The position numbers were made by a program, and so were the translations under genes. This document shows positions 31,901 through 63,630 of a DNA stretch of 64,000 nucleotides, piece after piece. A model generated the notes under the pieces. That model saw only the letters and a list, made by a program, of their open reading frames with translations. It was not told the DNA's origin and searched no databases. Origin of the DNA: an uncultured virus (IMG/VR IMGVR_UViG_2695420507_000016) (taxonomy: Duplodnaviria > Heunggongvirae > Uroviricota > Caudoviricetes). The stretch lies in the IMG/VR virus record IMGVR_UViG_2695420507_000016. The stretch is one strand, 5' to 3'. Each line of letters opens with the position of its first letter. Positions within the stretch are counted from its first letter, which is position 1.

Positions 31901-34900
31901 TAGCTAGATCCTTTGATGTTTGGTCAGCTGTAGCTTTTGTTGTTTTTACTACAGAAGATAAACCACCAGGTACAGTTGCATCATATTGTTGGATTTGCTG
32001 AGCTATAACTCCCTTATTAACATCAGCCTTGATAAAAGTATCTTCAACAAATTGAGCATTTTGTTTTAGAGATGATCTAAATCCGCCTTTAAAATTTGGC
32101 GCTGAATTACCTCGGCTGATAAACATATTAGTTACAGTAAATGTTCCACCAGATGGAGCATTATCAAACCGTAAACCTAGTGGAATAGCTTCATAAGCAG
32201 AGGCTTTTAAATCATTTGGGAAAATACCAGTAAGTTCTATTTCACCACTTGCAGCTACAACAAACGAAGGTAACCCAACACTATAAGTTGCACCATGAAA
32301 TTGAATACTACATGTAGCGCCAACTAATCCTGCAGTTGCTGTGTATTTGATTCTCGCAACTATTGGATCACCTTTATCAATTGGAATTTCCTTGTGTTTA
32401 TATTGCAGTTCCCAAACAGCTACAGTTCGGTTTGTACCAGTAGAAATACTTAAATTTTTAGTATCATCACCAAGTAAAATCCAGTTCTCTTCTGAGTAAC
32501 GTAAAGTATCAAGTTGTGCTTTAAAAACTTTGATTTCCTCAGCAAATACTTCTTTCGCATCAGATCTTGTAATTTTTTCTTGAAGAATTTGTGCGTGGTT
32601 TTCTAAAACCTTTTGTAAGTTTCCACTATTGTTTGCCAGACCAATCGGGATACCACTAACTACTTGGATTGCAAGCATGATTTGCTTAGCCCCATTTGGT
32701 CCAGTATCTGGTGTTGCATGCAATTCTATACCACGACCTGAACCAATCCCCTTCTGACCAACTAAAATGTATGCATCCCGACCCGTTATTTGATCAAGTG
32801 TGAATGGATTGGCACCTAATGAAATTAATGCATTCTTAACTGGTGCTAGGTTTACACCAATACTGTCGTAGTTTGTAACGATAACAAAGGTGTCATTTGG
32901 AATCGCAGAAATAGCGTTACTCATTGCCGTAGCATTTGCTACAGCTGCATAAGTATCATATCTAGTTGAAGAAGCTATAGAACCATCAGCTGCTAAAACA
33001 TGGACTGAAAAACCACGTGCTGAAGCTACTGATTTGATTTCACCTTTTAAGTTTTTAATCCCTGTGAAAAAGCCATTCCAGCCACATGAATAAACACGGT
33101 AATTGAAAACTTGACCAAGGTCCTGATTTAATTGTTTATAACTTGATTCCAAGTTATTAATAGACTGTGTAGTGTTCTGTTGATTATCACTAATAGTTGA
33201 ATTAATTTCCTGAAACTTACCATCTACAGCAGTTTTATTATTGTCTACAGTAGATTTTAAAGTCGCATAATTCTCTGCAAGTGAAGTAATCTTTTCACCG
33301 TTTTTTTGAACATCAGCTTTAGTACCTTCAATTGCAGAAGCATTAGCTTCAAGATCCTTAATTAGTTCACGAGGATTTTTTCTAAAACCAGTGGCTAACT
33401 CACCTTTTTCAAGTTGCACTTCTCTAATTAAAAAGTCAGGAGCAAAACCTACTTGCGAATATAAAATTAAGTTAATATGCTGTAAATTAATAATATTTGT
33501 ATCAAAGGTATAAGTACATAATGTTTCTTTATCAGTCGAAATGTTATTCCATGTAGTACCAATTTGGTTATTACGACCTGATGAATCTCGACGGTGTATA
33601 ATTAATAAAATTTGAGTCTGTGCAGCTGTCAACGACATTGCTTTAAATGACAATGTGTACTTCTGATTCATCTCTAAACCATCTGCCAATGTCAGAGTTT
33701 CAATAAACCCTTTAAAGTATGTAGTTGTATCAGTAGATTTAAAGTGCCCCCAAGTAGCACCTTTTGAATCTTTATAAACTTCAAGTAGATTACCTGCCAC
33801 AGCAGAATTTTGACGCCAATTTAAGGTGCCTAAAGGGCTTGAGAAATCACCATTTTTAATTATGTTGTCACCACCACTTGAAGAAATAGCAGCTTTGATA
33901 ATTTTGCTCTCTTCAGCAATAGCTTGGTTAGTTTCTGTTTTGGTGTAGCGAGTACTATCTAGTGTTGCTGAACTATTAGTCCACAAATCGCCAAATTTTT
34001 GACGAAATTTAGCTTCAAGGGTTTCAGTTGCAGAAGTTATTGCTTGAGCAGTATCTGCTTTAGAAGAGTAATCCTTAATTAGAGTTGAAGTACTTACCTT
34101 ATCATTTAACGCTTTATTATTACCTTCATAAACTTCTACCCAATGCACTGTAGTAGTGGCATTAGCATTTGCTGAAGAATTTGGAAAACAATAAAAATTA
34201 ACAACAGTTGCGTCTGTTCTAGAAATTGTAGTTAAGGTAAATTCGTAGATATCTTTACTAGCTGAAAAAATAGGTGCATCTGCATTAAATACATTACCTC
34301 CGCCAATATATACACGCAAATTGGCTGCATTGTTCCCTCCATTATCAAAGGTAACTTTTGCTCTGACGGTAACAGTAATACCAGGTGCATTTAAACTTTT
34401 TGCTAAGGGATATGATACTTGTAAATAACCACCCGTTTTACTTTTTTCGACATTACCCCCGATAACGATGTTGTCAAAAGACTTACCACCGATACTTGTT
34501 TTCAATGCTTCGGTCGCAGTTGATATTGCGCTATCAACATCAGATTTAGTCATCCGGTCGGAAATTTGTTTAGCCTGTGCAGCCAAACCATTTACAGGAT
34601 CATTAATTGTTGATTCTAAGTTTTGAGTTTTTTTAGCTAAAGCAGTACTTTCAGTAACATACGTTTGTTTAAATTCATTTAAATTTGCTGATACTTGATC
34701 GAATGCTGCATTGAAGTCGTAAGGACTTGCAATCCAATTATCTGTAGTTATGAAATCCCCTTTAACTAACACAGCCCAATACACAGTACCAACACTTTGC
34801 TTGTCTGCAGTTGGTCTGCTAAGCATATAAAAGTTAACTTCTTTGGCGGTACCAGCTGAAGTCTTCGTAAAAGTAATTTTGCTTATTACCTTACCTGAAG

Positions 34901-37900
34901 TGTTAATAACCTGCTGTAAAAACTGACTTCCTCCACCAGCATATACAGCTAAATTTGAGTTTGTGTCACCAGCACCACGTGTATGCTCTGCACACCAAAG
35001 AAGAGTGTACTTTGCTCCTACTTCCCAGTCTTCACCAAGCTTATAGCGTAAATGAGGATATGAAACGCCATCGTAGTTTCCAACTACGTTAGAGTTAATC
35101 AACAAGTTCGTACCAGCCGGTGCGGACTTGTTAAGATTTGCAGATAAAGTATTAGCCTGTTCAGTAACAGCTTTAATCTGACCAGCTTGTTCAGTAACTT
35201 GTGAATTTGTAGTTTGTAATGCTTCAGTTGACGCTTTTTTACTTACTTCGGTATTGGTTATAGTTAGATCATTTCTAAGTTTTGAAATATCTAAACTTTG
35301 AGAAGATAAACTATCACCATGCTTCTTCACTTCAGCTTGAGTAAGCTTAATCGCTTCCGCATTTGCATTTAATGAACTTTGAGTATCTCGAGGGCTTGGG
35401 CTCCACGCTGTAGCTTTATTACCTGCTTCGATCTGCAATTTTTGAATTGTTGGAATTCGACCAGTGCCATATGTACCGTAAAACTCAATAGTCGATTCGG
35501 TTGTGCTGCCAGTGTGTAATTTAGGAAACACGGTAACTTCAAATTTTTGAAATTCATTTGCTTTAGTGACTGTAACAGAAGTTGTGAAGAAGTGAGCTGA
35601 TCCATTAGATGAATATACTTGTACAGTTCCAGCAACCGGTACACTCACTTCAAATGAAATCGTAACCGGCTTATCTAAATTTTCATCATAAAAAGCTTTC
35701 AACTCTTTGCTACGTTCATACATTAAGTATTCACGGCTTGTTGCTGCTGTGGATGTTCGAGGTGCTTCTGAATTGGCTACGGCGTTAACACCACCAATCT
35801 TAATGTTATTCACTGCAGCTGTAATATCAGTCGCCACACGCCCCATGGCACTTTCAAGATCACTCTTTGTAGCTGTTTTCGATAAAGCTTGGGCATTGCT
35901 CAGAATACCTGTTTCTGCGTTCTGCATTCTTGATTCAAGCTTAGTGGTTCTTTCAGCTTCAGCTTCTGTTCTGTTAGTTGCTGTTTTGAATAAATCATTT
36001 GCAGTTGCTGTTGCATCATTAGCAGAAGCTAAAGAGTTGTTATCTTCAACAATAATGTAATTAAGCTGACAAATTCCTGTCTGAAAGTTGTAGTTAGCAA
36101 TAAACATTGGGGCATAAAATTCAGCCTGTGCTGGGAATGTGCGTGGATTTTCAATTGTCCCTAAACCAGTTGCTGCCCCAGTAGACTTACCTTTCATGTA
36201 TAGAACTACTTCTTGCCACTCACCTAAATTAGGTTTAATGGCTGACAATAAGTAGTTAGACGAACCCATATCTCCTGCAAGGGAGTTTGTAGTAGTTACA
36301 TATTTACTTTGGTCTGCATTTTTACATGCAACACCAAGATAAATAGATCCAGTTTCCCCAAGCACACGGCGGAAGCGTGCACGCACTCGATACAACTTAT
36401 TTGGATCAATTTTTTGGAACTCGTTCCAGTGAACCCATGCTTCATCATTACCGGCATTATTCCCAAGCTCAAGAATATAACCACCTAATGCATCAGCATC
36501 TTGAATTACTTTCGCTTCACCTGTGGTACGCCACTGTGTCCAGTCGTCAATACCTTTTGACGTTACGACTGCACGAACCCCTGACGTTACTTGAGTTTGA
36601 GACTTTAGGCTTAATAAATTTTGAGAAAGTGCTTCTGTAGCTTTTACCGCCGTTGTACCTGTTTGCTGCGCTTCTGCTGCATTATCGAAAGCAAGTTTAG
36701 CAATATCATCAGTAGTTTTAAGTGATGATGAAAGGCCATTTATTCTTGTATTTGTATTACTTTCTAAGGTCGAAACACTTTTTTGAACATCAGTAATTTG
36801 ACCTTGTACCTTTAAGTTTTCTTTAGAGATACTTGTATCAAGTTCACTAAATTTTGAAGTAGTAGACTGTTCAAATTCGGCGAGCGACTCAGTAACTTCT
36901 AGAATATTTGCATTAGATTTCCGATCAGCCTCTTCTAGAGCTGCTTTCGTTTGGTCGATGCGTAAAGATAAGGCTTTATCACCATCAGAAACTGATTGAG
37001 CAATTGTTGCTAAATCTGACGTTGTTTTAGTTTTATTCGAATTATAGTCGGTTTTTAGTTCTTCAAGTTTTTTTGCTTCTGAAACAAGCTTTTCATCAAC
37101 AAGTTTTACAGATGATTCAACCTTTTCGATATATGAAGCATTTCCAGTAATTTGATCACGCCATGCTTTTGGAATGGTGTCATTAAGTGCAGTAATGTCC
37201 CAGACTTCATAATCGGCAAGGATTACATCCACTGGGTTTGCTGTGCTTGGTAAAGGTGGATTAGTGCCAGCAATAACACGGAAATGCCCATGGATAGCTG
37301 CAGGCGCATCATAGCCACACTGAACAACAGAGTAATAAACCTCAAACTTACCTGTTCCTTCCTTATTCCCAAGTACACGTAAATAACCACCTGTACCTGT
37401 AGCATTGCCAACTGGTAATAAATAAGTGCCCATAGGCATTTTAATAATTTGTTTTATTAAAAACGTTTTATTAGGAGCAGCAACAAGAGTTGGAACAGTC
37501 GGATACCAGCCACCACCTAGAGAAACAGTGGATCTTAATAGCATCTCATGGGTACTATTTACTGGGTTATCAGTAGATTTAGCTTGTCTAGTAAACGTTG
37601 AACCTGAAGGTACAACATATGCGCTTAACCCCCCATTCCCAGATAGAAATGTAGGATCGTCACGTAAAGGCTTACCAAGTGATTGCATTCGCGCTAACTC
37701 AGTAGCATTTAACAAGCTTGCATTAGTGGTATCTAAACTTGCTTGAATTTGATCAGTCTTTTCAGCAACAGATTTACCAAGATCAACTACTGTACGTTCA
37801 ACATTATTAATTGCCGCTTTGTTATCACCAATTTGAGACTGGGCAGTACTAATTTGTTCAGTAAAAGCTCTATCTTGAGCAGCAAGGGTTTTTATTTCTT

Positions 37901-39356
37901 CTGAAATTAGGGCATTTGATTTACCCAATTCAGTTTGCATTTCAGCAAACTTAAGCTCAAAACTTTTTGTTAATGCCTCTTTATCATTTGCACGTGCTTC
38001 AGCTTCAGCTAGAAAACCCGAATCGACTTTCTTATCAAGGTCAACATACTGGGCTGCAACTTGATCAACTTTTTTAACTGCAGCTTCAGTTTGGGTTACA
38101 ACCGGTTCAATTTTTTGATTAATGAGTGTATTAGTTTCTTCACCTAATGCTAATTTAGCGTCATCAATCATTTGACCAGCTTTAACTAAGTTTTGATCAA
38201 TGTCTTGTTTTAAGGCGGCCTTAGTTTGATCAATAACATTTAGTGTGTCAGCTGCTTGTTTTTTACGGTCCAGAACTTCTTGATCCGCAATTTTTTTTGC
38301 GTTTTCTGCGACTAACCGAATTTCATTTGAATCACTTCTTACATCAGCAATGATTGAATCTGTTTCACTTTTAATAAAACCGATTTTATCATCGAGTTCT
38401 TTCTCAGCACGAATTGCACGTTGTTGAGCATCAGCAACCAATGCTTCATTAGCTTGAATAGACTGATCGATACGTTGATTGGCTTCATCCAATCGTAGAT
38501 TAGCCTCATTATTATGTTGATCTACAATTAATTTAGTATTATTTATTTCTTGATCTATATAAGCACGAACTTCATCGACTTTATTTTGAGCGATCTGATT
38601 AACTTCTTTAACTTGTTCATGAATCTTTTGAACTTCCTCATCAAAATGTTTCATTCCTTCTTCAAGCAATTTAAAAGCATCAGAATCTTTAATATTTTCT
38701 ATTAATTCTTCTACTTCCTTTATTTTTTCATCAATCTCTTGGCTTACTTGATCTTTAGTTTCATCAATTTTTTCGCCTTGTTCTTTTAACTCTTCCTTTA
38801 AACTTTCTAATTTATTAAGAGCATCTTTAAATGCACCCTCAATAGCTTTAGGGTCAATAGGCACACCTGCAACCGTAAGCGTTGTGCCAACTGCCATACT
38901 ACCCGCTACAGCACTATTGCCCGCAACTGAAGTATTACCCACTACAGTGCTATTTCCCGTTAATGTGCTATTACCAGTTTGTTGAGTATTAGCTTGTACA
39001 TTCATTAACGGCGTTTTGATCGAAACGGTTGTGCCAGAATCTACTTTTAAATTTTCTTTAGAGATAAATTCAATATTGTCTTGTCGAATACGGCGCACAC
39101 CTACAATCGCGCCGTCTCCGTGACTGACATAACTATGGATTACTGGACGTTCTTCATTACCATTTTCAAAGAAGACATAGACGTCTTCCCCATCCACAAT
39201 TTGAATTTCTGTATCTAAATCACTATCGCCGACTGGATAAGCAAAAGTTGCTGTAATTCCTTCACTCGCGCCATCAGTTAAACCATGAATGTGTACTTGT
39301 GCAGTACGACCTTTTGCGTTGTAACTTAAAATCTTTGCACGTTTTAAACCATTCAT
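28998..39356 (-). CDS. Giant central spike/tail-fibre fusion (3452 aa)
   Basis: N-terminal gp5/gpV-like OB fold (VYVFFENGNEERPVI) and beta-helix repeats, coiled coils, carbohydrate-binding-like modules, DUF1983-like C-terminus. Confidence 0.85.
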   Translation of the reverse strand: MNGLKRAKILSYNAKGRTAQVHIHGLTDGASEGITATFAYPVGDSDLDTEIQIVDGEDVYVFFENGNEERPVIHSYVSHGDGAIVGVRRIRQDNIEFISKENLKVDSGTTVSIKTPLMNVQANTQQTGNSTLTGNSTVVGNTSVAGNSAVAGSMAVGTTLTVAGVPIDPKAIEGAFKDALNKLESLKEELKEQGEKIDETKDQVSQEIDEKIKEVEELIENIKDSDAFKLLEEGMKHFDEEVQKIHEQVKEVNQIAQNKVDEVRAYIDQEINNTKLIVDQHNNEANLRLDEANQRIDQSIQANEALVADAQQRAIRAEKELDDKIGFIKSETDSIIADVRSDSNEIRLVAENAKKIADQEVLDRKKQAADTLNVIDQTKAALKQDIDQNLVKAGQMIDDAKLALGEETNTLINQKIEPVVTQTEAAVKKVDQVAAQYVDLDKKVDSGFLAEAEARANDKEALTKSFELKFAEMQTELGKSNALISEEIKTLAAQDRAFTEQISTAQSQIGDNKAAINNVERTVVDLGKSVAEKTDQIQASLDTTNASLLNATELARMQSLGKPLRDDPTFLSGNGGLSAYVVPSGSTFTRQAKSTDNPVNSTHEMLLRSTVSLGGGWYPTVPTLVAAPNKTFLIKQIIKMPMGTYLLPVGNATGTGGYLRVLGNKEGTGKFEVYYSVVQCGYDAPAAIHGHFRVIAGTNPPLPSTANPVDVILADYEVWDITALNDTIPKAWRDQITGNASYIEKVESSVKLVDEKLVSEAKKLEELKTDYNSNKTKTTSDLATIAQSVSDGDKALSLRIDQTKAALEEADRKSNANILEVTESLAEFEQSTTSKFSELDTSISKENLKVQGQITDVQKSVSTLESNTNTRINGLSSSLKTTDDIAKLAFDNAAEAQQTGTTAVKATEALSQNLLSLKSQTQVTSGVRAVVTSKGIDDWTQWRTTGEAKVIQDADALGGYILELGNNAGNDEAWVHWNEFQKIDPNKLYRVRARFRRVLGETGSIYLGVACKNADQSKYVTTTNSLAGDMGSSNYLLSAIKPNLGEWQEVVLYMKGKSTGAATGLGTIENPRTFPAQAEFYAPMFIANYNFQTGICQLNYIIVEDNNSLASANDATATANDLFKTATNRTEAEAERTTKLESRMQNAETGILSNAQALSKTATKSDLESAMGRVATDITAAVNNIKIGGVNAVANSEAPRTSTAATSREYLMYERSKELKAFYDENLDKPVTISFEVSVPVAGTVQVYSSNGSAHFFTTSVTVTKANEFQKFEVTVFPKLHTGSTTESTIEFYGTYGTGRIPTIQKLQIEAGNKATAWSPSPRDTQSSLNANAEAIKLTQAEVKKHGDSLSSQSLDISKLRNDLTITNTEVSKKASTEALQTTNSQVTEQAGQIKAVTEQANTLSANLNKSAPAGTNLLINSNVVGNYDGVSYPHLRYKLGEDWEVGAKYTLLWCAEHTRGAGDTNSNLAVYAGGGSQFLQQVINTSGKVISKITFTKTSAGTAKEVNFYMLSRPTADKQSVGTVYWAVLVKGDFITTDNWIASPYDFNAAFDQVSANLNEFKQTYVTESTALAKKTQNLESTINDPVNGLAAQAKQISDRMTKSDVDSAISTATEALKTSIGGKSFDNIVIGGNVEKSKTGGYLQVSYPLAKSLNAPGITVTVRAKVTFDNGGNNAANLRVYIGGGNVFNADAPIFSASKDIYEFTLTTISRTDATVVNFYCFPNSSANANATTTVHWVEVYEGNNKALNDKVSTSTLIKDYSSKADTAQAITSATETLEAKFRQKFGDLWTNSSATLDSTRYTKTETNQAIAEESKIIKAAISSSGGDNIIKNGDFSSPLGTLNWRQNSAVAGNLLEVYKDSKGATWGHFKSTDTTTYFKGFIETLTLADGLEMNQKYTLSFKAMSLTAAQTQILLIIHRRDSSGRNNQIGTTWNNISTDKETLCTYTFDTNIINLQHINLILYSQVGFAPDFLIREVQLEKGELATGFRKNPRELIKDLEANASAIEGTKADVQKNGEKITSLAENYATLKSTVDNNKTAVDGKFQEINSTISDNQQNTTQSINNLESSYKQLNQDLGQVFNYRVYSCGWNGFFTGIKNLKGEIKSVASARGFSVHVLAADGSIASSTRYDTYAAVANATAMSNAISAIPNDTFVIVTNYDSIGVNLAPVKNALISLGANPFTLDQITGRDAYILVGQKGIGSGRGIELHATPDTGPNGAKQIMLAIQVVSGIPIGLANNSGNLQKVLENHAQILQEKITRSDAKEVFAEEIKVFKAQLDTLRYSEENWILLGDDTKNLSISTGTNRTVAVWELQYKHKEIPIDKGDPIVARIKYTATAGLVGATCSIQFHGATYSVGLPSFVVAASGEIELTGIFPNDLKASAYEAIPLGLRFDNAPSGGTFTVTNMFISRGNSAPNFKGGFRSSLKQNAQFVEDTFIKADVNKGVIAQQIQQYDATVPGGLSSVVKTTKATADQTSKDLATLRNTEISQLQTSTNNLGSALENTTMLAMMITNGKLLQGDVNFKKGNNGVSVYNNAGNGNVTVTRVAKSSDNPTTSTHEIEIKTIGAASPTWGGFVQLVYGRANAVFVIKYLIKLPVGYKLVNAGNAMGTGAIDRFIGNTEGTGKFETYIRMIKCGAVGSFSNSGHVYVAGGSTPTATAPLVWTLAQIEQYDVTDYASADPTLQDFVSSATDSISTLTNFKETWAAKLTEMSSKLDSKNGAYILNADITNTNVERAIAASSQKITSEYTNAMSVQPLSSGAGKIFVKPLTWRQAITTSGTLVIKTPITVGAYMTKVKISGYNYNNKEDNIFDLDLAFYAYTSTVPFYPNMTSRSFGITLDENNATTKGLALALDSNNKVCILITKKDAWSYPAITVESATITHTNPPDYFKDGWTAAIETDLSVYKSVTPFTVTSMMETTAGSQAKVDVPMSQLSDIAADNKLTPVEKKQAKLVWDTLYQTDASLRAEAVTYGISSTAYATAFSTLNTYLAALFANMNVTSTIDRNQFITNFANVHNARQALVRAISEKAKEIADTAKDIASTTKATLERDYMTSTKTNEAIASSTERMSALYSANGQKIMASVLETWQKDWLVKTPSGNRPELSLVADATCRGGYALRIGNNVGNDEAWLNWFTSLPIDDNKYYRVKYRFRRVSGTGVVYVGATCQNANKTKYIAQDNSEINDIGSSHYLVAGTAPALGTWITGTAYFKGRSAGASAGAGTLLSPKTFANKAAFFTPVFIGNYSGKAGEVDLDFIDIEDADNIADFENFKTTYTTDVGAYAGALQTLVSVYGQNAIKLKSQADLIDGVKGKYVMGMDNNGVFSGLSMVSEQNNGTVRTSIGFQADRIFFTTGTSSTKYMPFIIQDNQVIMNSDVFIKNLTAANFKAKSLTAELFKVDKLSAIAGELGTLTTYKDPTKPNGARMVLSGSLITVYDDNNVVRVKLGLW

Positions 39357-41478: not shown

Positions 41479-41745
41479 TCACATCTGTTTATAGATAACA
41501 TCTCGCCTATCTACATCAAGAACAAGAACTACGACTACATCATCCTTGACTTGATATAAAAGGCGGTATCCTGCTGATTTCAGTTTAATCTTATATAGAT
41601 CAACTGATCCTCTCAGCTTATTCTTCGGTATCTTAGGGTTATCTAGGATTGCTTCCAGCTTACGAATAAACTGCTCAGCGATTTGTGGGTTAAGTTTGTC
41701 AAACTTTTTAAGAGCTGTTTTTGAGAACTCTAGCTCGTAACTCAT
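41479..41745 (-). CDS. relE: RelE/StbE-family toxin
   Basis: YELEFSKTALKKFDKL...LYKIKLKSAGYRLLYQV. Confidence 0.9.
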   Translation of the reverse strand: MSYELEFSKTALKKFDKLNPQIAEQFIRKLEAILDNPKIPKNKLRGSVDLYKIKLKSAGYRLLYQVKDDVVVVLVLDVDRRDVIYKQM

Positions 41746-41995
41746 TAATAGATACCTTCACAGTTTCGTCAGTATCAACTTGCTCGGCTAGTTTAATTAG
41801 TTCCTGATCTTCAATTAGATCCATCATGCGTTCATACATTGCTGCCGGAACACAGTAGAATTCTGGATTATTTCTATTCAGAATAGCTACTGCTTCGCCA
41901 AAAGCATTTTGTACAACTGCTGTAGGATTCTTTTTTAATTCAGAAACACTAGCCACAAATCGACTATGGATTATGTGGTTCATGACGTTTCTCAT
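41708..41995 (-). CDS. Phd/YefM (StbD-like) antitoxin
   Basis: ASVSELKKNP...VAILNRNNPEFYCVPA; overlaps the toxin gene; operator-like inverted repeat at 42101-42132. Confidence 0.9.
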   Translation of the reverse strand: MRNVMNHIIHSRFVASVSELKKNPTAVVQNAFGEAVAILNRNNPEFYCVPAAMYERMMDLIEDQELIKLAEQVDTDETVKVSINELRARVLKNSS

Positions 41996-55307: not shown

Positions 55308-55865
55308 TTAAAAGATTGAAAAAGGAAGCATTGTTGGATCTACAGCATCTTCTTCAAACTGATTCCCTTCAGTAATTGAAAAGCCTTTGGCAATTTTCGT
55401 ACTAGCCCAAACAGCTAATAGAATTGCAATGTGTCCATTGTTTAAGCTGCTGCTATCAAATTCTTGCTGAAGGCCGTTTTTATCGACCTTACGGATTTCA
55501 AGTACGTTTTTAGGGTTGTACTGGTTTAGCTTCGGCTCAATTTCAATTAACTTTGCTCTGAAACGAGCTTGGTAAATTGAAATCACTTCTTCTAAGTGCT
55601 CTTTAGCATTGAAACTTAATTGCCAATTCTGTACTTGATCCGGTGAGTCAGTTACTACAACTGTTTGATCTCTTAAATCGCTTGGTACGGGCAAATTTGA
55701 ATAAACAGCTGTTTTTTGAATAACAAGCTCACCTGTATCAGCAAATGCCGCTCCAATAAGTCGAATTGGTTGATCCGAAAACCCAGCAACACGGCTGTCT
55801 ATACGAATAATTCCAGACATTACATTTATCCTTAGCGCCGTTTGCGTTCTAACTTGGTTTGGCAT
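55308..55865 (-). CDS. Hypothetical phage protein upstream of terminase
   Basis: Probable start 55820. Confidence 0.65.
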   Translation of the reverse strand: MPNQVRTQTALRINVMSGIIRIDSRVAGFSDQPIRLIGAAFADTGELVIQKTAVYSNLPVPSDLRDQTVVVTDSPDQVQNWQLSFNAKEHLEEVISIYQARFRAKLIEIEPKLNQYNPKNVLEIRKVDKNGLQQEFDSSSLNNGHIAILLAVWASTKIAKGFSITEGNQFEEDAVDPTMLPFSIF

Positions 55866-56032
55866 TCAATGCAGAATTTCACGCCACCTAAAGCACGGCG
55901 GCGCTCTGGTATTTCTTCACCACATTCAACACATTCTTTTTCAGATTCGCCTTCAAAACGGCATCGGTTTGCAATTTCTTGCTGCAATAAATAATCAGCA
56001 CTTTCTTGTGCCTTATCGATTAAGTCAGTCAT
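55832..56032 (-). CDS. TraR/DksA C4 zinc-finger protein
   Basis: D.ID.A...CVECGEEIPERRR......FCIECQ. Confidence 0.9.
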   Translation of the reverse strand: MTDLIDKAQESADYLLQQEIANRCRFEGESEKECVECGEEIPERRRALGGVKFCIECQTKLERKRR

Positions 56033-59199: not shown

Positions 59200-60641
59200 G
59201 TAGCCCCCGAAATATCAGCGGTGCGTTCCAACTCAACAGTAATGCTGTCTTTTGTCACATACACCCACTCATTAGGCTTATTCAACTCATTTGAAAGCAT
59301 AATGGTAAAGTCACTCATCCGGTCTTGGAAAGCCACAATATTGTCATTAATCAGCTTCCCCATTTCTTGCGTATTAAAGCCATTAACCAGCCAACGACTT
59401 GAGCTCAATGATTCACGCCCGTATCGTTCTACAAGTAATTCTTTGATCTGTGTCTTAACCATATCTGTGTTATGTACAGAAGCCAAAGAGCCTTTAATTT
59501 TTACTTCAATTGGCTTTTCTACAACTTCATGTACATTCACTTTACCTTCATACAAGTTATCGCAATAACCAATATACCGACAGATATCTTGTTCTAACGT
59601 TGCTTGTTCAGCTGGGTTCTTGGCAACCACCACAAGATTTAAATGATTTATGTCGCGGTATGTAATGGCAAAGTGTTGCTCTTGCAACGTTTCATTCCAG
59701 ACAGAAATAAACTGTGCCCGTTTCATAAATTTTTTACGGACTGCATAGTCAAAGTTGCCGAGAAATACCGCATCTTCATCGTAAAGTGATGGATAGCTTG
59801 ATAATAAACGTAATTCTGATACAGCTAACGGATCTACGCCCTCTCTAATCAGTCCACCAGCTTTAAAACGCACTGATACCCGCTGTTCATCATTAGTAAG
59901 TACATCAAGTAAGGCCGCATCTTTTAAACGATTAACATCAACTTCCCCGTATGTCTCAAGAATTCCAATTATTACCGTTTCATTGGCTTGCAGAGTACGA
60001 CCAGCTCTCTCAGAATCGCCAAACTCAATAAACAATCTTCTTAGATTATCTGTAGTAATAGTTACAGCATATTCACCTGGTTCAACATTCATCCAGCGCG
60101 GCTTAATTACATAGTTATTATTGCCCTGCTTAACCGAAATATTTGCAAGTGAAAGGTCCTCTAAAAGGTCAATTCGATATTTATGGAACCCTTCAGTAAC
60201 TGGTACAACATATTTAATTTCACGGTATTCACTTTGTTCTGCTATTACTTCCGCCGTCTCACCAGCTTTAACAGTAATTGATTGAAGCAACCGCCATACT
60301 CTACCGCCGCTATGGTCCTCAATCATTCGCCCTTGACTTAAGCTCACAGCATTTGTTGACCGGTTGATAATTTCTATTAAGTGCTGACACGGTGTACCTA
60401 TAGGCAAAATGCCTTTATTTGTAGCATCCGCAATAATTGAGCGGTCACGTGTTTTGGTAAATGGTTCAATTGAAGCAATATCGATTTCTGGACCAAATGC
60501 AGTCAAAAAACTAGCCATAGAACGCAGCTGGTGAACGACAAGTGGATCTTGAGCTTTATAGCGTTCCTGAATCTCATAATCATCTATCGCTGCTTGGAGC
60601 TGGGCTTCAAAATCAGCTTGCGTTAATGTCATATGTCTCAC
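59187..60641 (-). CDS. Baseplate wedge protein (BplA/gp6-like)
   Basis: IEFGD...G, G.DP....ELR, AVFLGNF motifs; probable start 60632. Confidence 0.7.
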   Translation of the reverse strand: MRHMTLTQADFEAQLQAAIDDYEIQERYKAQDPLVVHQLRSMASFLTAFGPEIDIASIEPFTKTRDRSIIADATNKGILPIGTPCQHLIEIINRSTNAVSLSQGRMIEDHSGGRVWRLLQSITVKAGETAEVIAEQSEYREIKYVVPVTEGFHKYRIDLLEDLSLANISVKQGNNNYVIKPRWMNVEPGEYAVTITTDNLRRLFIEFGDSERAGRTLQANETVIIGILETYGEVDVNRLKDAALLDVLTNDEQRVSVRFKAGGLIREGVDPLAVSELRLLSSYPSLYDEDAVFLGNFDYAVRKKFMKRAQFISVWNETLQEQHFAITYRDINHLNLVVVAKNPAEQATLEQDICRYIGYCDNLYEGKVNVHEVVEKPIEVKIKGSLASVHNTDMVKTQIKELLVERYGRESLSSSRWLVNGFNTQEMGKLINDNIVAFQDRMSDFTIMLSNELNKPNEWVYVTKDSITVELERTADISGATWTL

Positions 60642-60951
60642 CTGTTACTGATTTACCCAATCGGTCTGCTACTTGGTTAAGATCTATATTCACATTCATG
60701 ATGCTTAAATGAATATGAACCGTCTCAAATCCTTCGGTTTGTGAATACAGGGCTAATTGGTCAGAGTTAAGCTCAGATAATATTGGTAGATCCTTTTTCA
60801 TCTTAATAAGAAAACTATCTGCCACCCTCGAGTCTAAAGGTGCCATTAGCAAATCATAAAGAGGTGCACCAAAGTCAGAACCATACTTCCCATTAACCGG
60901 ATGATTAAGCCAGTACTCAACCATGTCTAAAATTGTTTTAGATGTGATCAT
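60613..60951 (-). CDS. gp25/GPW-like baseplate protein
   Basis: WL..P...YGSDFG..L.DLL..P. Confidence 0.6.
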   Translation of the reverse strand: MITSKTILDMVEYWLNHPVNGKYGSDFGAPLYDLLMAPLDSRVADSFLIKMKKDLPILSELNSDQLALYSQTEGFETVHIHLSIMNVNIDLNQVADRLGKSVTGETYDINAS

Positions 60952-61307
60952 TAGGAAGTTGCTCTATTACTGAAAATCATCAAAAGCTTTACTAGTATTG
61001 CAGTGCCGATCTGGTAAGTTGAAAAAATGGTGAAATAGATTATGAATATCCATAATGAAACGCTTAATGCATCAAAATATGAAGCAACGTTATAGATTCG
61101 CCAATCAACAAGAATAATAGTGATCAATACACATGCCATACTTATGAAATACATATATCTGATTTCTTTAAATAAGAGGCTTATAGGCACATGACGGAAT
61201 TGTTTAATATACGCAGCTTTATTCTTGCTATTCCATCCTGTAACAACGGAAAGATAAGCTAAAAATGCAAGAATTAAGACAATATCAATACCGATTTGAA
61301 TTTGCAT
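60951..61307 (-). CDS. Three-TM membrane protein (start revised to 61307)
   Basis: Late promoter and SD precede ATG 61307; three hydrophobic segments. Confidence 0.7.
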   Translation of the reverse strand: MQIQIGIDIVLILAFLAYLSVVTGWNSKNKAAYIKQFRHVPISLLFKEIRYMYFISMACVLITIILVDWRIYNVASYFDALSVSLWIFIIYFTIFSTYQIGTAILVKLLMIFSNRATS

Positions 61308-61336
61308 AAAAAACACCCTTAATAAGAACTGTATTA

Positions 61337-61377
61337 AGGGTATTGCTTTTGTATATATGTAAGCGTGAATGGTTCCA
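61337..61377 (-). promoter_or_regulatory. Late promoter motif with RBS hairpin
   Basis: TGGAAC-N29-TACCCT; ACCCTTAATA/TATTAAGGGT stem. Confidence 0.75.
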
Positions 61378-61415
61378 TATTTGAAAATAAGAAATGCATG
61401 GATTATTATATATAC

Positions 61416-61508
61416 AAAGCCCGCTCCACTTATGACACGAGAACGTATAGGGTCATAAGTGTAGGTTAGAAGATGTCGCAACCCATCTCTAACTACCGGG
61501 CTTTTTTT
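61416..61508 (+). ncRNA. Predicted ~93-nt three-way-junction small RNA
   Basis: TTGAAA-N17-TATTAT at 61381-61409; closing stem AAAGCCCG/CGGGCTTT, two internal hairpins, T7 tail. Confidence 0.7.
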
Positions 61509-62448
61509 AATGCACTTCAAAAGCTGTAAGCAGCCATGCATTACTACCTTCTCGCTTAATCAATGACGCTTCATGCGAATTAAATACAATATTTATTCTT
61601 GTAGATAATCCACGTTCTGTACGCCGTTGTGTACTACCTTGAGCGATTGTTTGCACAATAGTATCCACAAGCATATGCACAACTTCATCATATGTCATGC
61701 CATCACTTTCCATACGGCGCTTGATAATATGCTTAATACCCTGTTTATCACTGCCATACTCAAAATCCACCCAGCCTAAATCATTACGATACATAGCTCT
61801 ATGCACTGTGGTTTTTTCCATAATGGCTTTGTTCATTGCAGCTTTACCACGTGTGATATTTGCTGTAACTGATTTGATTGGACTCGCACTATCAAATTCA
61901 GGCTTTCCCAGTTCGGATTGACCAGCCTCCGAACTTATACCAAGTTGTTGCTTAGCATGTTCAATTTGTTCTTTCAGCTGGTCACGGTGAGCTATTTGCT
62001 TAGCTAAATCCTCATCAAGCTTTTGCTCTTGTTCTTCGACTTCTTTAATTTTCTGATCTACAGAAGTACGGCGCGGCGGTAAGCTAACTTTTTCACGCTT
62101 ATTTTGTTCTTGGATTTTAGATTGTGCTTCACGGATAAGTTTAGCAACACAACTTACGGCGTTTTCAAATGTTGGCTTATAGTCATCACTAAAATCGCCA
62201 GATAGAACAATTACTTTATCATTCAGTTCGGCCTTCACTACATCCGCTAATGCACGAATATAAAGTGTAAGCGTAGCGCCACCTGAAAAGAAAAATGCAA
62301 CTGGTAAAACGCTAACACCAGCAACGCGCTTAATTTTGCGAAATTCTGGTGTAACAATCGTTTGGCCTGTTGCTTTTTCTAATGCCGATTGGATCTTTTT
62401 AATGTATGGAGAAGTAGCTGTTATAGCTGCAAGATTAAGACTGCCCAT
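61507..62448 (-). CDS. DarA_N/Hdf-like domain fused to a PBECR-type RNase domain (start revised to 62448)
   Basis: N-terminal KRVAGVSV....FSGGATLTL...DV....LN.K; coiled coil; C-terminal LGWVDFEYG...GIKHIIKRR...WLLTAFE. Confidence 0.7.
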   Translation of the reverse strand: MGSLNLAAITATSPYIKKIQSALEKATGQTIVTPEFRKIKRVAGVSVLPVAFFFSGGATLTLYIRALADVVKAELNDKVIVLSGDFSDDYKPTFENAVSCVAKLIREAQSKIQEQNKREKVSLPPRRTSVDQKIKEVEEQEQKLDEDLAKQIAHRDQLKEQIEHAKQQLGISSEAGQSELGKPEFDSASPIKSVTANITRGKAAMNKAIMEKTTVHRAMYRNDLGWVDFEYGSDKQGIKHIIKRRMESDGMTYDEVVHMLVDTIVQTIAQGSTQRRTERGLSTRINIVFNSHEASLIKREGSNAWLLTAFEVH

Positions 62449-62475
62449 GAAAAATAACCTCATATCAATGAGGTT

Positions 62476-62516
62476 ATTTTGAAATCTATTGGATGTACAA
62501 TTTGTGCAAGGTTCCA
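62476..62516 (-). promoter_or_regulatory. Late promoter motif with RBS hairpin
   Basis: TGGAAC-N29-CAAAAT; 13-bp stem AAAATAACCTCAT/ATGAGGTTATTTT covers GAGG. Confidence 0.8.
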
Positions 62517-62529
62517 ATTTTTAGAACCC

Positions 62530-62630
62530 TAAAACGAGGAAAACACCCCGCAGGGTGCTTTCAAATAAGACTTATTGGATTATCAGCGAGAAATTTATTA
62601 CTGATATCTTATTCAATAAGATTAGCTATG
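62530..62630 (-). ncRNA. Predicted ~100-nt small RNA downstream of the AbiF-like gene (candidate RNA antitoxin)
   Basis: TTGACA-N17-TATTAT at 62664-62636; no ORF; stems ATCTTAT/ATAAGAT and TATCAG/CTGATA; terminator GAAAGCACCC tgcg GGGTGTTTTC. Confidence 0.75.
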
Positions 62631-62685
62631 TACCTATAATATTAATTACTGCACCACTTGTCAAATTTGTGCAACAGTGAAATTA

Positions 62686-63630
62686 CTAAAAACCTCTAGA
62701 AATAACTATTCCACCATGTTGGTGCTTAATTTCTATTAAGCATGAAATTTTCAAAAGACGACGGAACTCTCTCTTAGCCCTTGATAATGGCAGTTCTCTC
62801 ATATAGGAATAATTTTTATATATTTCGATAGTTGATTCTTGGCAGAACCAATCAAAATGTCTTTTATAACTTGATGATAAATAGTCATCCCTTCTATCTT
62901 TTGATATCCAACCTATTAACCGGCATAAACGATGATTCAAGGTCAACATTCTTGAAATGCTTTCACTTGGGGTAGTAGCAGATTCATAGATCACTACTTT
63001 TGATTTTTCATGAAGAATCTCAGTAAATTTCCATAATGGCTCGTGGTGAGCAATACGATTTCTTAAAGATAGAACCTGTCTTAACCGAATAATCAAATCG
63101 TCTATAGCATTTGTATCCCAATAACTTTTATTTACAGCAAAATGATCTTTAAAACCCTTAAAGAAAACTTCAGGCCAATCAATAGAAGGATGTAATTCAA
63201 TAAGTTTAATCCAAAAACCAAATGTCTGATTTGCTATAACTTTACCTGGAGTTGGAATGTTTTGTGTTTTAGGAACTAAAGTCGTAATTCCATTAACCTT
63301 CTTTTTCCTATGAGTCATTTTTTTTAATATTTTTTGAGTTTCCAAGTTTAGTATATTTTGGTCCATAAGGTACATGTACCAATCATTATCATGTATGTGT
63401 CCTTGATTTTTATGCGAAAAATAAAGATACGATAATTCTTTATGTACCATATTACGAAATGCAACTTCAAAAATACTTAACAACTTAAAAAAAGCAGTTG
63501 AGAGCGCATCATTCCAAAGGTATACACCTATGCACTCCTCATTATTTTTTAAATTAAAATATAATTTATAACTCTTTAATCGATCAGAAGATAACAAGTC
63601 TACGGTATTAGAAATATTGCTAGACTTCAT
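62686..63630 (-). CDS. Abi_2 (AbiD/AbiF-like) HEPN protein
   Basis: LS.DRL..Y, YLWN..LS, FEVAFRN, TFGFW, LRNRIAHHEP (Rx4H). Confidence 0.85.
   Translation of the reverse strand: MKSSNISNTVDLLSSDRLKSYKLYFNLKNNEECIGVYLWNDALSTAFFKLLSIFEVAFRNMVHKELSYLYFSHKNQGHIHDNDWYMYLMDQNILNLETQKILKKMTHRKKKVNGITTLVPKTQNIPTPGKVIANQTFGFWIKLIELHPSIDWPEVFFKGFKDHFAVNKSYWDTNAIDDLIIRLRQVLSLRNRIAHHEPLWKFTEILHEKSKVVIYESATTPSESISRMLTLNHRLCRLIGWISKDRRDDYLSSSYKRHFDWFCQESTIEIYKNYSYMRELPLSRAKREFRRLLKISCLIEIKHQHGGIVISRGF

What the first reader, a model, noticed from the sequence alone, without database searches (positions are those of the whole stretch)
61381..62516. Candidate new system: capsid-targeted BECR RNase paired with a convergent structured small RNA
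Seen: a late gene (62448-61507) joins a DarA_N-like domain, a coiled coil, an FDS motif and a C-terminal domain with G..HI..R...WLLT.F. A plus-strand unit runs into its stop codon. That unit has a sigma70-type promoter (TTGAAA-N17-TATTAT) and its predicted start falls at the first base of an 8-bp closing stem. It then has a 9-bp hairpin with a 15-nt loop, a bulged ~13-bp hairpin with an 8-nt loop, and a U7 tail overlapping the stop codon. Established: PBECR domains are predicted RNases of phage polyvalent proteins, and P1 DarA/Hdf are processed head-associated proteins. Inference: the RNase is packaged, freed by the prohead protease and injected, while a housekeeping-promoter RNA acts as antitoxin, decoy or guide in lysogens. 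That would be an RNA-controlled virion toxin that I do not know as a described system.
Basis: partly seen in the sequence, partly recalled or inferred. Interest (0 to 1): 0.9.

Follow-up and report, generated by a model that had tools for sequence, protein, structure and literature searches.

The report
Antisense RNA partner of phage RNase
Next to a phage gene for a probably injected RNA-cutting enzyme lies a small folded RNA gene on the opposite strand, and the same uncatalogued RNA sits beside this enzyme domain in very different phages, so it is probably the enzyme's antidote or partner.

Summary
Gene 62448-61510 (-) of this Acinetobacter prophage (about 97% identical to phage vB_AbaM_ABMM1) fuses an Hdf/DarA_N-like N-terminus to a PBECR1 RNase domain. 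The + strand unit 61416-61508 is a three-way-junction RNA.

It belongs to a family with no Rfam match. A model built only from the window found it in 24 of 46 distant PBECR1 loci (30-53% protein identity, GC 0.42-0.71). A second-round model found it in all 46, always antisense and abutting the 3' end of the domain.

In 40 of the 46 it lies inside the reading frame of a large polyvalent protein gene. Stems covary: 29 of 32 pairs show compensatory changes, with 87.5% of cells paired against 35-45% in slid controls.

G-U against A-C counts (98 vs 18), also with a mirrored model, place the RNA on the strand opposite the RNase gene. A sigma70-type promoter precedes it in 20 of 42 copies against 1.2% of random positions.

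Its function is not tested. I judge an RNA antidote or immunity factor for the RNase most likely. I obtained no strand-specific expression data.

The parts
61510..62448 (-). Gene for a 313-aa Hdf/DarA_N-like - coiled coil - PBECR1 protein (stop codon 61507-61509)
   Evidence: ORF table; Pfam PBECR1 E 9e-12; PHROG phrog_6398 over the full length, phrog_1620 Hdf-like E 3e-29
61912..62436 (-). N-terminal Hdf/DarA_N-like region (residues 5-179), shared with the alternative allele
   Evidence: PHROG phrog_1620 E 3e-29; Pfam DarA_N only E 0.029, below its cut-off; 73-85% identical in L068/L069/L071, whose C-termini differ
61510..61890 (-). PBECR1 RNase module (residues 187-313; Pfam match 218-311)
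   Evidence: 359 representative proteins at E<=1e-3, mostly with the domain inside proteins of 1000-5000 aa. His invariant in GxxH of the first long helix in 24 aligned sequences. AF2 pLDDT 92.4. Best full-domain structural matches are CdiA-CT and colicin D tRNases.
61416..61508 (+). Predicted structured small RNA of about 93 nt (three-way junction), member of an uncatalogued family tied to PBECR1
   Evidence: Fold z -5.05; covariance models R1 and R2; covariation; strand from G-U against A-C; no Rfam match
61381..61409 (+). Sigma70-type promoter of the RNA: -35 TTGAAA (61381-61386), 17-nt spacer, -10 TATTAT (61404-61409)
   Evidence: 10 of 12. Both hexamers are unchanged in all 20 sequence variants of 67 copies, while the spacer and upstream flank vary. 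A promoter in the same position stands before 20 of 42 family members.
61416..61423 (+). P1 5' strand (pairs with 61497-61504); the predicted transcript start is at or near 61416
   Evidence: 7 of 8 P1 pairs show compensatory changes across the family.
61427..61461 (+). P2 hairpin (61427-61436 with 61452-61461) with a 15-nt loop holding the conserved ACG...GUAGG
   Evidence: The loop is identical in L079, whose element has GC 0.67.
61464..61494 (+). P3 hairpin (61464-61475 with 61484-61494, one bulge) with an 8-nt loop
   Evidence: 10 of 11 pairs show compensatory changes.
61497..61508 (+). P1 3' strand and the U7 run (61502-61508), which overlaps the stop codon of the RNase gene
   Evidence: The run is T6 in 11 and T8 in 1 of 67 near-identical copies.
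62510..62516 (-). TGGAACC motif 62 nt before the ATG of the RNase gene (putative phage late-promoter or leader motif)
   Evidence: 25 matches in the window against 12.9 expected. 13 of the 18 on the - strand lie in short gaps upstream of structural-gene start codons.
62453..62478 (-). Hairpin holding the likely ribosome-binding site directly before the ATG at 62448
   Evidence: Sequence. Only these last 30-37 nt before the ATG are shared by loci whose upstream DNA differs.
61371..61377 (-). TGGAACC motif of the next gene. It marks the downstream edge of the exchangeable cassette (C-terminal domain plus RNA gene).
   Evidence: In the other allele (L071) a plain terminator hairpin sits 5 nt before this motif.
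60954..61307 (-). Next gene, a 118-aa hydrophobic protein. It starts at ATG 61307, not at 61541.
   Evidence: PHROG phrog_13717 matches 1-118 of 118. Homology between the alleles begins at MQIQIGIDIV.

Best explanation
Shown by computation. The + strand unit 61416-61508 belongs to a conserved family of structured RNAs of about 100 nt. Each is a three-way junction with P1, P2 and P3, and carries conserved unpaired GCUCC, ACG...GUAGG, GCGUAG and CA.C. The RNA is encoded antisense, directly at the 3' boundary of PBECR1 RNase domains in phage virion-effector (polyvalent) genes. About half of the copies have their own sigma70-type promoter.

Inferred for this window. Host RNA polymerase makes the RNA from TTGAAA-N17-TATTAT. 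Transcription starts at about 61416 and stops at the P1-U7 terminator that overlaps the stop codon of the RNase gene. The RNase gene is a late, Hdf-like (P1 head-protein-like) fusion. Its product is probably built into the head and delivered with the DNA.

Inferred function, the weakest step. The RNA is the antidote or immunity factor of the RNase. Its conserved loops and junction are recognised by the PBECR1 domain, as in type III toxin-antitoxin pairs. The RNase is thereby held inactive in the lysogen, in the producing cell, or in a lysogen superinfected by a relative that injects the same RNase. Nesting the RNA gene against the domain keeps the two together when domains are shuffled.
For: 1. 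Real structure. Fold z -5.05. On 42 family members 87.5% of cells are paired, against 35-45% with partners slid by 1-3 columns. 29 of 32 pairs have changes on both sides. The covariation score is 0.787 against 0.08-0.15, and 0 of 500 shuffles reach it (for 23 sequences).

2. Coupling, starting from the protein. Model R1, built only from the window's near-identical copies, hit 24 of 46 distant PBECR1 loci at E<0.01. R2 hit all 46, though 20 of them had supplied its training rows. R2 hit none of 3 loci with the other C-terminal allele, and hit the 64-kb window once. Every hit is antisense and abuts the end of the domain.

3. Coupling, starting from the RNA. A core-pattern scan of IMG/VR gave 17 distinct loci. 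16 are full R2 elements. 15 abut an antisense PBECR1 and 1 lies 110 nt beyond a PBECR3 ORF. None is an orphan. In 151 genomes of the phylum R2 hit 2, both beside PBECR1.

4. Strand. G-U/U-G 98 against A-C/C-A 18. A mirrored, sense-strand model gave fewer hits (18 against 23) and lower scores for 15 of 17 shared hits. In its own alignment the sense strand has 8 G-U against 33 A-C. Among the window's own relatives, 3 of 4 stem substitutions keep pairing on the + strand only.

5. Promoter. A match of 9 of 12 or better, correctly placed, stands before 20 of 42 copies against 1.2% of random positions. An extended TG -10 occurs in 7 of 42 against 0.9%. The window's hexamers are invariant in 20 variants.

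6. Not protein-level conservation. The element keeps its conserved bases where it lies outside the frame (6 of 46 loci, and the window, where it carries in-frame stops).

7. Inherited as a cassette. The alleles L068, L069 and L071 swap the domain and lose the RNA. L070 keeps a lone domain plus the RNA. L121 has 3 PBECR1 stretches and 4 RNA copies.

8. RNase and virion delivery.
Against: - There is no strand-resolved expression evidence. Four raw-read RNA runs gave 0 reads on the stretch, so they are no test. 14 RNA runs from 8 studies hold the stretch only as contigs, which show neither strand nor ends.
- Nothing here shows toxicity, binding or inhibition.
- Thermodynamics are neutral. The antisense strand is the more stable in only 23 of 42. 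The median z against mononucleotide shuffles is -1.5. Free folding recovers a median 68% of the consensus pairs.
- 22 of 42 copies lack a promoter match of 9 of 12 or better. These include a GC-rich group and the second copies of tandems.
- Only 9 of 42 have a T-run of 4 or more after P1, so a discrete 100-nt RNA is not evident for most nested copies.
- One PBECR1 locus of a more distant subfamily (L127) has no R2 match.
- The alignments were fitted to the models and the sequences are related, so the counts overstate independent events.
- Iyer et al. 2017 (section 19 read in full, other parts as passages) mention no antidote for PBECR domains. Whether an injected effector needs one is an assumption.
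Confidence: 0.45

Rival explanations
1. Cis-antisense regulator (type I-like, or like lambda OOP). The RNA acts only by pairing with the complementary late mRNA. This would trigger cleavage or block read-through, keeping leaky RNase or polyvalent-protein expression low in lysogens. The protein is not bound.
For: The geometry fits. The RNA is convergent and fully complementary to the mRNA at the domain boundary. It has its own sigma70-type promoter while the RNase gene carries the phage's late motif.
Against: An antisense RNA is complementary to its target whatever its sequence. Yet unpaired bases are kept across GC 0.42-0.71; for example, a 17-nt stretch of the P2 loop region is identical in the window and in L079 (conserved columns). 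A three-way junction with covarying stems is also kept. Both point to recognition by a constant partner. This does not exclude the rival, and both modes could coexist.
Confidence: 0.2
2. Cofactor, guide, decoy or cargo. The PBECR1 domain binds this RNA as a working partner. The RNA could be packaged with the protein, aim the RNase, or mimic its substrate, for example a tRNA. It would not be an inhibitor.
For: The tight two-way coupling and conserved loops fit this as well as they fit the antidote reading. The closest structural matches are tRNase toxins. Tandem RNA copies occur in 4 loci (L097, L099, L121, L123). RNA partners encoded over the 3' end of their protein's gene are known for TnpB/IscB (recalled, not checked here).
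Against: Nothing tested here speaks for packaging of RNA or for guiding. The catalytic histidine is invariant in 24 aligned sequences, so the domain looks like an active nuclease that would need restraint in the producing cell.
Confidence: 0.15
3. Trans-acting phage small RNA aimed at host or rival-phage messages. Its link to PBECR1 would be one of descent and position only.
For: It has a housekeeping-type promoter. Prophage small RNAs that regulate host genes are common (recalled).
Against: There are no orphan copies in either direction of search. One copy follows each PBECR1 domain in the multi-domain gene of L121. The RNA is lost together with the domain in the other allele. A free-standing regulator would not need to sit at the boundary of one protein domain in hosts this different.
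Confidence: 0.1
4. Not an RNA gene of its own. It would be a terminator of the RNase gene, a sense-strand signal in the mRNA (pause, recoding or self-cleavage site), a repeat element, or plain protein-level conservation of a linker peptide.
For: - In the window it sits where other late genes of this phage, and the other allele, have a plain terminator.
- Both strands fold equally well.
- The sense strand encodes a semi-conserved linker (G..G..ATxSS..T..P..R..GAG) in the large proteins.
Against: - The element lies inside the reading frame in 40 of 46 loci, so it cannot be a terminator there.
- G-U against A-C asymmetry and model scores favour the antisense strand, also with a mirrored model.
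- In the window the sense-strand T-tract after the stem is only TTTG....
- The nearest genome holds a single copy, and 1 of 151 genomes of the genus has it.
- Compensatory changes in 29 of 32 pairs are not explained by a peptide.
- The bases are kept where the element is untranslated.
Confidence: 0.05

Closest known systems
Type III toxin-antitoxin systems (ToxIN, CptIN, TenpIN; recalled, not checked in a paper here)
   Same: An endoribonuclease is tightly linked to a structured RNA that is thought to neutralise it by direct binding. RNA units stand in tandem in some loci (4 here). Both are found on phages and mobile DNA.
   Different: In type III systems the RNA precedes the toxin on the same strand, as short repeats that the toxin itself cuts. 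Here it is one three-way junction of about 100 nt on the opposite strand, downstream of the domain and mostly nested inside the open reading frame. The RNase has a BECR fold. Neither processing nor inhibition is shown.
Type I pairs with 3'-convergent antisense RNAs (Bacillus txpA/RatA, bsrG/SR4) and lambda OOP RNA against cII (recalled)
   Same: A short RNA with its own promoter runs into the 3' end of the gene that it controls.
   Different: Those toxins are small membrane peptides, and those RNAs have no sequence-conserved loops across distant hosts. Here the partner is an RNase domain, and the unpaired bases are conserved across GC 0.42-0.71.
Polymorphic toxin plus immunity cassettes with BECR tRNase tips (CdiA-CT/CdiI, colicin D/ImmD)
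   Same: This is the closest fold (7m5f_C, 6cp9_A, 7vmc_B, 5i4q_A, 5znm_B). A C-terminal toxic tip is exchanged together with what follows it (PBECR1 allele against the other allele).
   Different: The antidote there is a protein gene downstream on the same strand. No such gene follows here. The next gene is shared by both alleles, and the cassette holds an RNA gene instead.
Polyvalent proteins with PBECR1 and DarA-N domains (Iyer, Burroughs, Anand, de Souza, Aravind 2017, PMC5512222; section 19 read, other parts as passages)
   Same: The protein side is as described there. PBECR domains lie in phage multi-domain proteins encoded among virion genes. [quoted passage not shown] A PRTase domain is another module of such proteins.
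   Different: No RNA partner is mentioned in what I read. I could not see the figures or the authors' supplementary files on their FTP site.
Phage P1 Hdf and DarA head proteins
   Same: The N-terminus matches the Hdf-like PHROG at E 3e-29. The same phage has a DarA_N protein (E 1.2e-21), a DdrB-ParB protein and a helicase/methylase (DarB-like, my label) beside the portal gene.
   Different: P1 Hdf is a single-domain protein (passage of Iyer 2017). Here it carries an RNase. Pfam DarA_N is below its cut-off for this protein. Incorporation into the head is not tested.

Membership tests
PBECR1 (Pfam PF18809) | Profile match above the curated cut-off | tested here: met
   45.9 bits against 27.6, E 9e-12, residues 218-311
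PBECR1 (Pfam PF18809) | [quoted passage not shown] | tested here: met
   His (GIKHII) is invariant in 24 aligned sequences. Thr of WLLT is T, S or N in the homologues.
PBECR1 (Pfam PF18809) | BECR fold | tested here: inconclusive
   The AF2 model has pLDDT 92.4. The top Foldseek hit is CdiA-CT 7m5f_C (E 2e-3, probability 0.99). With VIA-align, the listed matches that align 76 or more residues and span most of the domain are CdiA-CT and colicin D tRNases, but Z is only 5.0-6.2.
PBECR1 (Pfam PF18809) | RNase activity | not testable with these tools
   Needs an enzyme assay
DarA_N / P1 Hdf family | Profile match | tested here: inconclusive
   Pfam DarA_N is below its cut-off (14.6 bits against 27). 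PHROG phrog_1620 'Hdf-like antirestriction' matches at E 3e-29 over 175 residues.
DarA_N / P1 Hdf family | Incorporated into the phage head and processed | not testable with these tools
   Context only: Dar-like genes beside the portal gene and the late motif before the gene
Type III toxin-antitoxin | The RNA antitoxin is encoded upstream of the toxin on the same strand, as tandem repeats | tested here: not met
   The RNA is antisense and at the 3' side of the domain in every locus. Tandem copies occur in only 4 loci.
Type III toxin-antitoxin | The RNA binds and inhibits the endoribonuclease | not testable with these tools
   No RNA-protein test is on hand
Type I toxin-antitoxin | An antisense RNA overlaps the toxin mRNA | tested here: met
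   By geometry; transcription is not shown
Type I toxin-antitoxin | The toxin is a small hydrophobic peptide | tested here: not met
   The partner is an RNase module of about 125 residues
Intrinsic terminator of the RNase gene | Hairpin plus U-tract on the gene's own strand, after its stop codon | tested here: not met
   The sense strand has only TTTG after the stem. The element lies inside the reading frame in 40 of 46 loci.
Any Rfam 15 family | Covariance-model match | tested here: not met
   No match at the element with E up to 10 in window 60500-63000. No match with E up to 1 in 7 other loci. No tRNA or tmRNA in the window.

The most novel reading that the evidence does not exclude
The RNA is an immunity RNA. 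It binds and silences the PBECR1 RNase directly, and its gene is nested backwards in the linker that follows the domain. Poison and antidote therefore stay together whenever phages shuffle the modules of their injected polyvalent proteins. Prophages would express it from a host-type promoter and so shield their lysogen from the RNase injected by superinfecting relatives. That would be a new class of toxin-antidote arrangement, with an RNA antidote encoded inside the effector's own reading frame. It would also give the first handle on how phages live with their own virion-borne nucleases.
Probability: 0.4. Interest if true: 0.95.

Novelty: new variant of a known kind. Interest (0 to 1): 0.87.

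Why it matters
PBECR domains occur in up to 26% of phage and plasmid polyvalent proteins (Iyer 2017, section 19). Their targets are unknown, and so is how the producing cell or a lysogen tolerates them.

A conserved, strand-specific, promoter-bearing RNA that accompanied this PBECR1 type in every locus examined gives a concrete and testable partner. Its absence from Rfam suggests a new structured RNA family.

It is also an unusual case of an RNA gene nested antisense in a protein-coding linker, which constrains the linker's sequence. It would explain how a toxic module can be shuffled safely.

If the RNA proves to be an inhibitor, it is a ready tool for expressing and studying these RNases. 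It would also be a marker for finding them in genomes.

Tried and rejected
- Rfam and tRNA scans of the element found nothing.
- A search of the window's own assembly was impossible because it is not held. The nearest genome holds one copy.
- Near relatives gave almost no variation. Of 69 IMG/VR loci, 63 hold the element, and these copies are 94-100% identical to the window's (two of them truncated). Covariation could not be tested there.
- The window-only model R1 over 151 genomes of the genus found only the known copy plus four weak hits (E 0.03-0.5) that I read as probable plain hairpins.
- Raw reads of four RNA runs of the same species label held no read of the stretch. Those strains apparently lack the prophage, so this is no test.
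- A single-sequence structure model of the whole protein was poor (pLDDT 48).
- A word-index protein search with the C-terminal module gave only 2 plus 4 hits. The exhaustive search was needed.
- GenBank phages: the module is found only in ABMM1. E. coli genomes and plasmids gave no match to a distant member. In PLSDB the module occurs in 5 Acinetobacter records only.
- The 19-nt core string occurs in no full text. It is also absent from the held supplements of the ATCC 17978 transcriptome paper and the AB5075 interactome paper. Those tables may not hold sequences.
- Frameshift idea: the A-run at the stop codon and the frame that stays open through the element into the next gene. I rejected it. 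The shift needed is +1 at CAU UAA, with no fitting slippery site. The run length varies (T6, T7, T8). The next gene has its own start.
- Free-energy comparison of the two strands did not decide the strand.
- A second RNA type beside a distant PBECR1 subfamily (L127, L146) shows the same layout (extended -10, P1, two hairpins, U-run). With 6 distinct sequences, 4 of them nearly alike, I could not test it.
- Earlier notes of this scan held nothing on this RNA.
Full report
**What the window is**

Positions 60900-62485 are 96.7% identical to Acinetobacter phage vB_AbaM_ABMM1, OQ471969.1. An Acinetobacter nosocomialis chromosome holds a close copy.

From about 17.8 kb to 62.5 kb nearly all genes lie on the - strand. 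They include portal, terminase, sheath, tube and baseplate genes.

Beside the portal gene are three Dar-type genes:
- a DarA_N protein (E 1.2e-21),
- a DdrB-type ParB protein (E 1.6e-35),
- a 1276-aa helicase/methylase, which I label DarB-like.

**The protein**

The ATG at 62448 opens a 313-aa frame that ends at 61510, with its stop codon at 61507-61509.

- Residues 218-311 match Pfam PBECR1 (E 9e-12, above the cut-off).
- Residues 5-179 match the PHROG 'Hdf-like antirestriction' at E 3e-29. Pfam DarA_N stays below its cut-off.
- With an alignment of 24 sequences the C-terminal 127 residues fold with pLDDT 92.4.
- The matches that cover most of that domain are BECR-fold tRNase toxins: CdiA-CT 7m5f_C (Z 6.2, 95 residues aligned), 6cp9_A (5.5), 7vmc_B (5.3), 5i4q_A (5.0) and colicin D 5znm_B (5.0). 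These Z values are modest.
- The histidine that Iyer et al. 2017 name as catalytic is invariant in the alignment.

The gene also carries the motif TGGAACC 62 nt before its ATG. That motif occurs 25 times in the window against 12.9 expected (0 of 100 shuffles reach 25). 13 of its 18 copies on the - strand lie in short gaps upstream of start codons of the phage's - strand genes, most of them structural genes by PHROG. I therefore accept 'late gene' as an inference.

**The RNA in the window**

The single sequence folds equally well on both strands. The promoter match is not above chance on its own.

The element occurs in 63 of 69 IMG/VR loci found with the protein, where it is 94-100% identical to the window's copy (truncated in two of them). 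These copies carry little information, but what they carry points one way.
- Three stem substitutions turn a Watson-Crick pair into G-U on the + strand, which would be A-C on the - strand: 61417 A>G, 61421 C>T and 61496 C>T.
- One substitution (61432 A>T, five loci) breaks a pair on both strands.
- Both promoter hexamers are unchanged in all 20 variants, while the spacer and flank vary.

**The cassette**

Three loci (L068, L069, L071) keep the N-terminal 180-225 residues at 73-85% identity. Their C-terminus is a different domain of about 260 residues. It has no Pfam match. I call it PRTase-like only from a recalled motif.

There the RNA unit is absent. A plain terminator hairpin sits 5 nt before the TGGAACC motif of the next gene, as in other late gaps of this phage. 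L070 holds the PBECR1 module alone together with the RNA unit.

So the RNase module and the RNA unit are exchanged together.

The 196-aa frame 60951-61541, annotated as a gene in ABMM1, is over-extended. The next gene starts at 61307.

**The decisive result**

An exhaustive search found the module in 359 representative proteins. In most it lies inside proteins of 1000-5000 residues. I fetched 46 viral loci with 30-53% identical modules.

- Model R1, built only from the window's own copies, hit 24 of these 46 loci at E<0.01 (best 8.5e-14). Every hit was at the 3' end of the module and in the same relative orientation as in the window.
- Model R2, rebuilt from 23 hits (22 of them from 20 of these loci), then hit all 46, with extra tandem copies in L097, L099, L121 and L123. 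It hit none of the three other-allele loci and hit the window once.
- Other domains in these large genes are LPD3, LPD5, LPD23, ART-PolyVal and MuF_C. L121 has three PBECR1 stretches and four RNA copies.
- In 40 of the 46 loci the module's reading frame runs on through the element. In 6, and in the window, it stops at the module's end.

**Is it a structure, and on which strand?**

On 42 members 87.5% of cells pair, against 35-45% when partners are slid. 29 of 32 pairs show changes on both sides, and no shuffle reaches the observed values (for 23 members). These alignments are fitted to the model and the sequences are related, so the numbers are generous. The gap to the slid controls is still very large.

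G-U/U-G pairs number 98 against 18 A-C/C-A in the orientation antisense to the RNase gene. To rule out aligner bias I built the mirror model on the sense strand. It gave 18 instead of 23 hits on the same 39 sources. It scored lower for 15 of 17 shared hits. Its own alignment shows 8 G-U against 33 A-C on the sense strand.

Free energies do not separate the strands: the antisense strand is the more stable in 23 of 42.

A sigma70-type promoter matching 9 of 12 or better, with its -10 box ending 3-11 nt before P1, precedes 20 of 42 copies, against 1.2% of random positions in the same DNA. The copies without one are mainly second copies of tandems and a GC-rich group. That group has a further conserved stretch upstream.

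A T-run of 4 or more after P1 is present in only 9 of 42.

**Specificity**

Starting from the RNA, a core pattern found 17 distinct viral loci.
- 16 are full elements.
- 15 of these abut an antisense PBECR1.
- One lies 110 nt beyond a PBECR3 gene.
- None stands alone.

In 151 genomes sampled across the phylum, R2 hit two, both beside PBECR1. One further PBECR1 of a distant subfamily (L127) has no R2 match, but shows the same layout with other sequence.

**Reading**

The conserved unpaired bases are kept from GC 0.42 to 0.71. They are also kept where the element is untranslated. This argues for recognition by a constant partner, and the only constant neighbour is the RNase domain.

I therefore favour an RNA antidote that binds the domain (0.45) over:
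- a purely antisense regulator (0.2),
- a cofactor or cargo (0.15),
- an unrelated trans-acting RNA (0.1),
- a non-RNA artefact (0.05).

**Novelty in print**

PBECR1 occurs in one paper of the library. Searches for 'polyvalent protein' with 'antisense RNA' or with 'small RNA', and for 'BECR' with 'RNA antitoxin', returned 4, 10 and 1 papers. By the titles and abstract openings listed, none concerns such an RNA. I did not see the figures or external supplements of Iyer et al. 2017.

Noticed in passing
window, - strand motif starts 14725, 21762, 25298, 27562, 41427, 42509, 46464, 49348, 53291, 57806, 58578, 61377, 62516: TGGAACY stands in the gaps upstream of these - strand start codons, about 55-75 nt before them. 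About 35-45 nt after the motif comes a hairpin whose 3' arm holds the likely ribosome-binding site. A T-run then often lies directly before the ATG. This looks like a phage-wide late promoter or leader design, with start sites masked or with attenuators. A 66-aa DksA-like zinc-finger gene lies at 55835-56032.
   Followed up: partly
window 61322-61334, inside hairpin 61312-61344: The loop of the hairpin before the next gene is inverted (reverse complement) in ABMM1 and in L040, L041, L043, L046 and L066, relative to the window. This is a flip of the loop between perfect arms.
   Followed up: partly
L068, L069, L071 (about 3100-3890 of each locus): An alternative C-terminal domain of about 260 residues sits on the same Hdf-like N-terminus. 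It follows a WDENEHPRDANGKF linker motif that also precedes PBECR1 modules in other proteins. It has no Pfam match. Its VIIVDDTQTQGG stretch recalls phosphoribosyltransferases.
   Followed up: partly
window 62530-62664 and 62686-63630: An Abi_2 gene (E 2e-10) is followed by a near-consensus - strand promoter (TTGACA-N17-TATTAT, 62664-62636) and a terminator-like hairpin (62562-62539). Together they could make a leader or RNA of about 100 nt. This upstream block is present in only 14 of 70 related loci. The region before the RNase gene is a hot spot for varied cargo.
   Followed up: partly
window 60951-61541: The 196-aa frame annotated as a gene in ABMM1 runs through the RNA element and overlaps the RNase gene. 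The real gene probably starts at 61307 (118 aa).
   Followed up: yes
L127 about 1405-1510; L146: A distant PBECR1 subfamily has no match to the RNA model. It shows the same layout on the antisense strand: TGnTATACT, a closing stem, two hairpins and a U-run over the last codons of the domain. This may be a second, cognate RNA type.
   Followed up: partly
L144 890-990 and 1101-1733: A full copy of the RNA lies 110 nt beyond a PBECR3 (not PBECR1) gene. That gene's N-terminal stretch (SAMKSVKA) resembles the start of PBECR1 modules.
   Followed up: partly
window 41479-41995: A RelE-like toxin and its antitoxin gene lie between tail genes (PHROG E 4.6e-27 and 1.5e-35).
   Followed up: no
PLSDB record NZ_CP096897.1 (62,124 bases): An identical RNase module lies on a 62-kb Acinetobacter record filed as a plasmid. 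This phage type may also exist as an episome, or the record may be a circularised phage genome.
   Followed up: no
window 28998-39356: A 3452-aa protein with tail-tip, carbohydrate-binding and ILEI-like domains, probably a giant fibre.
   Followed up: no
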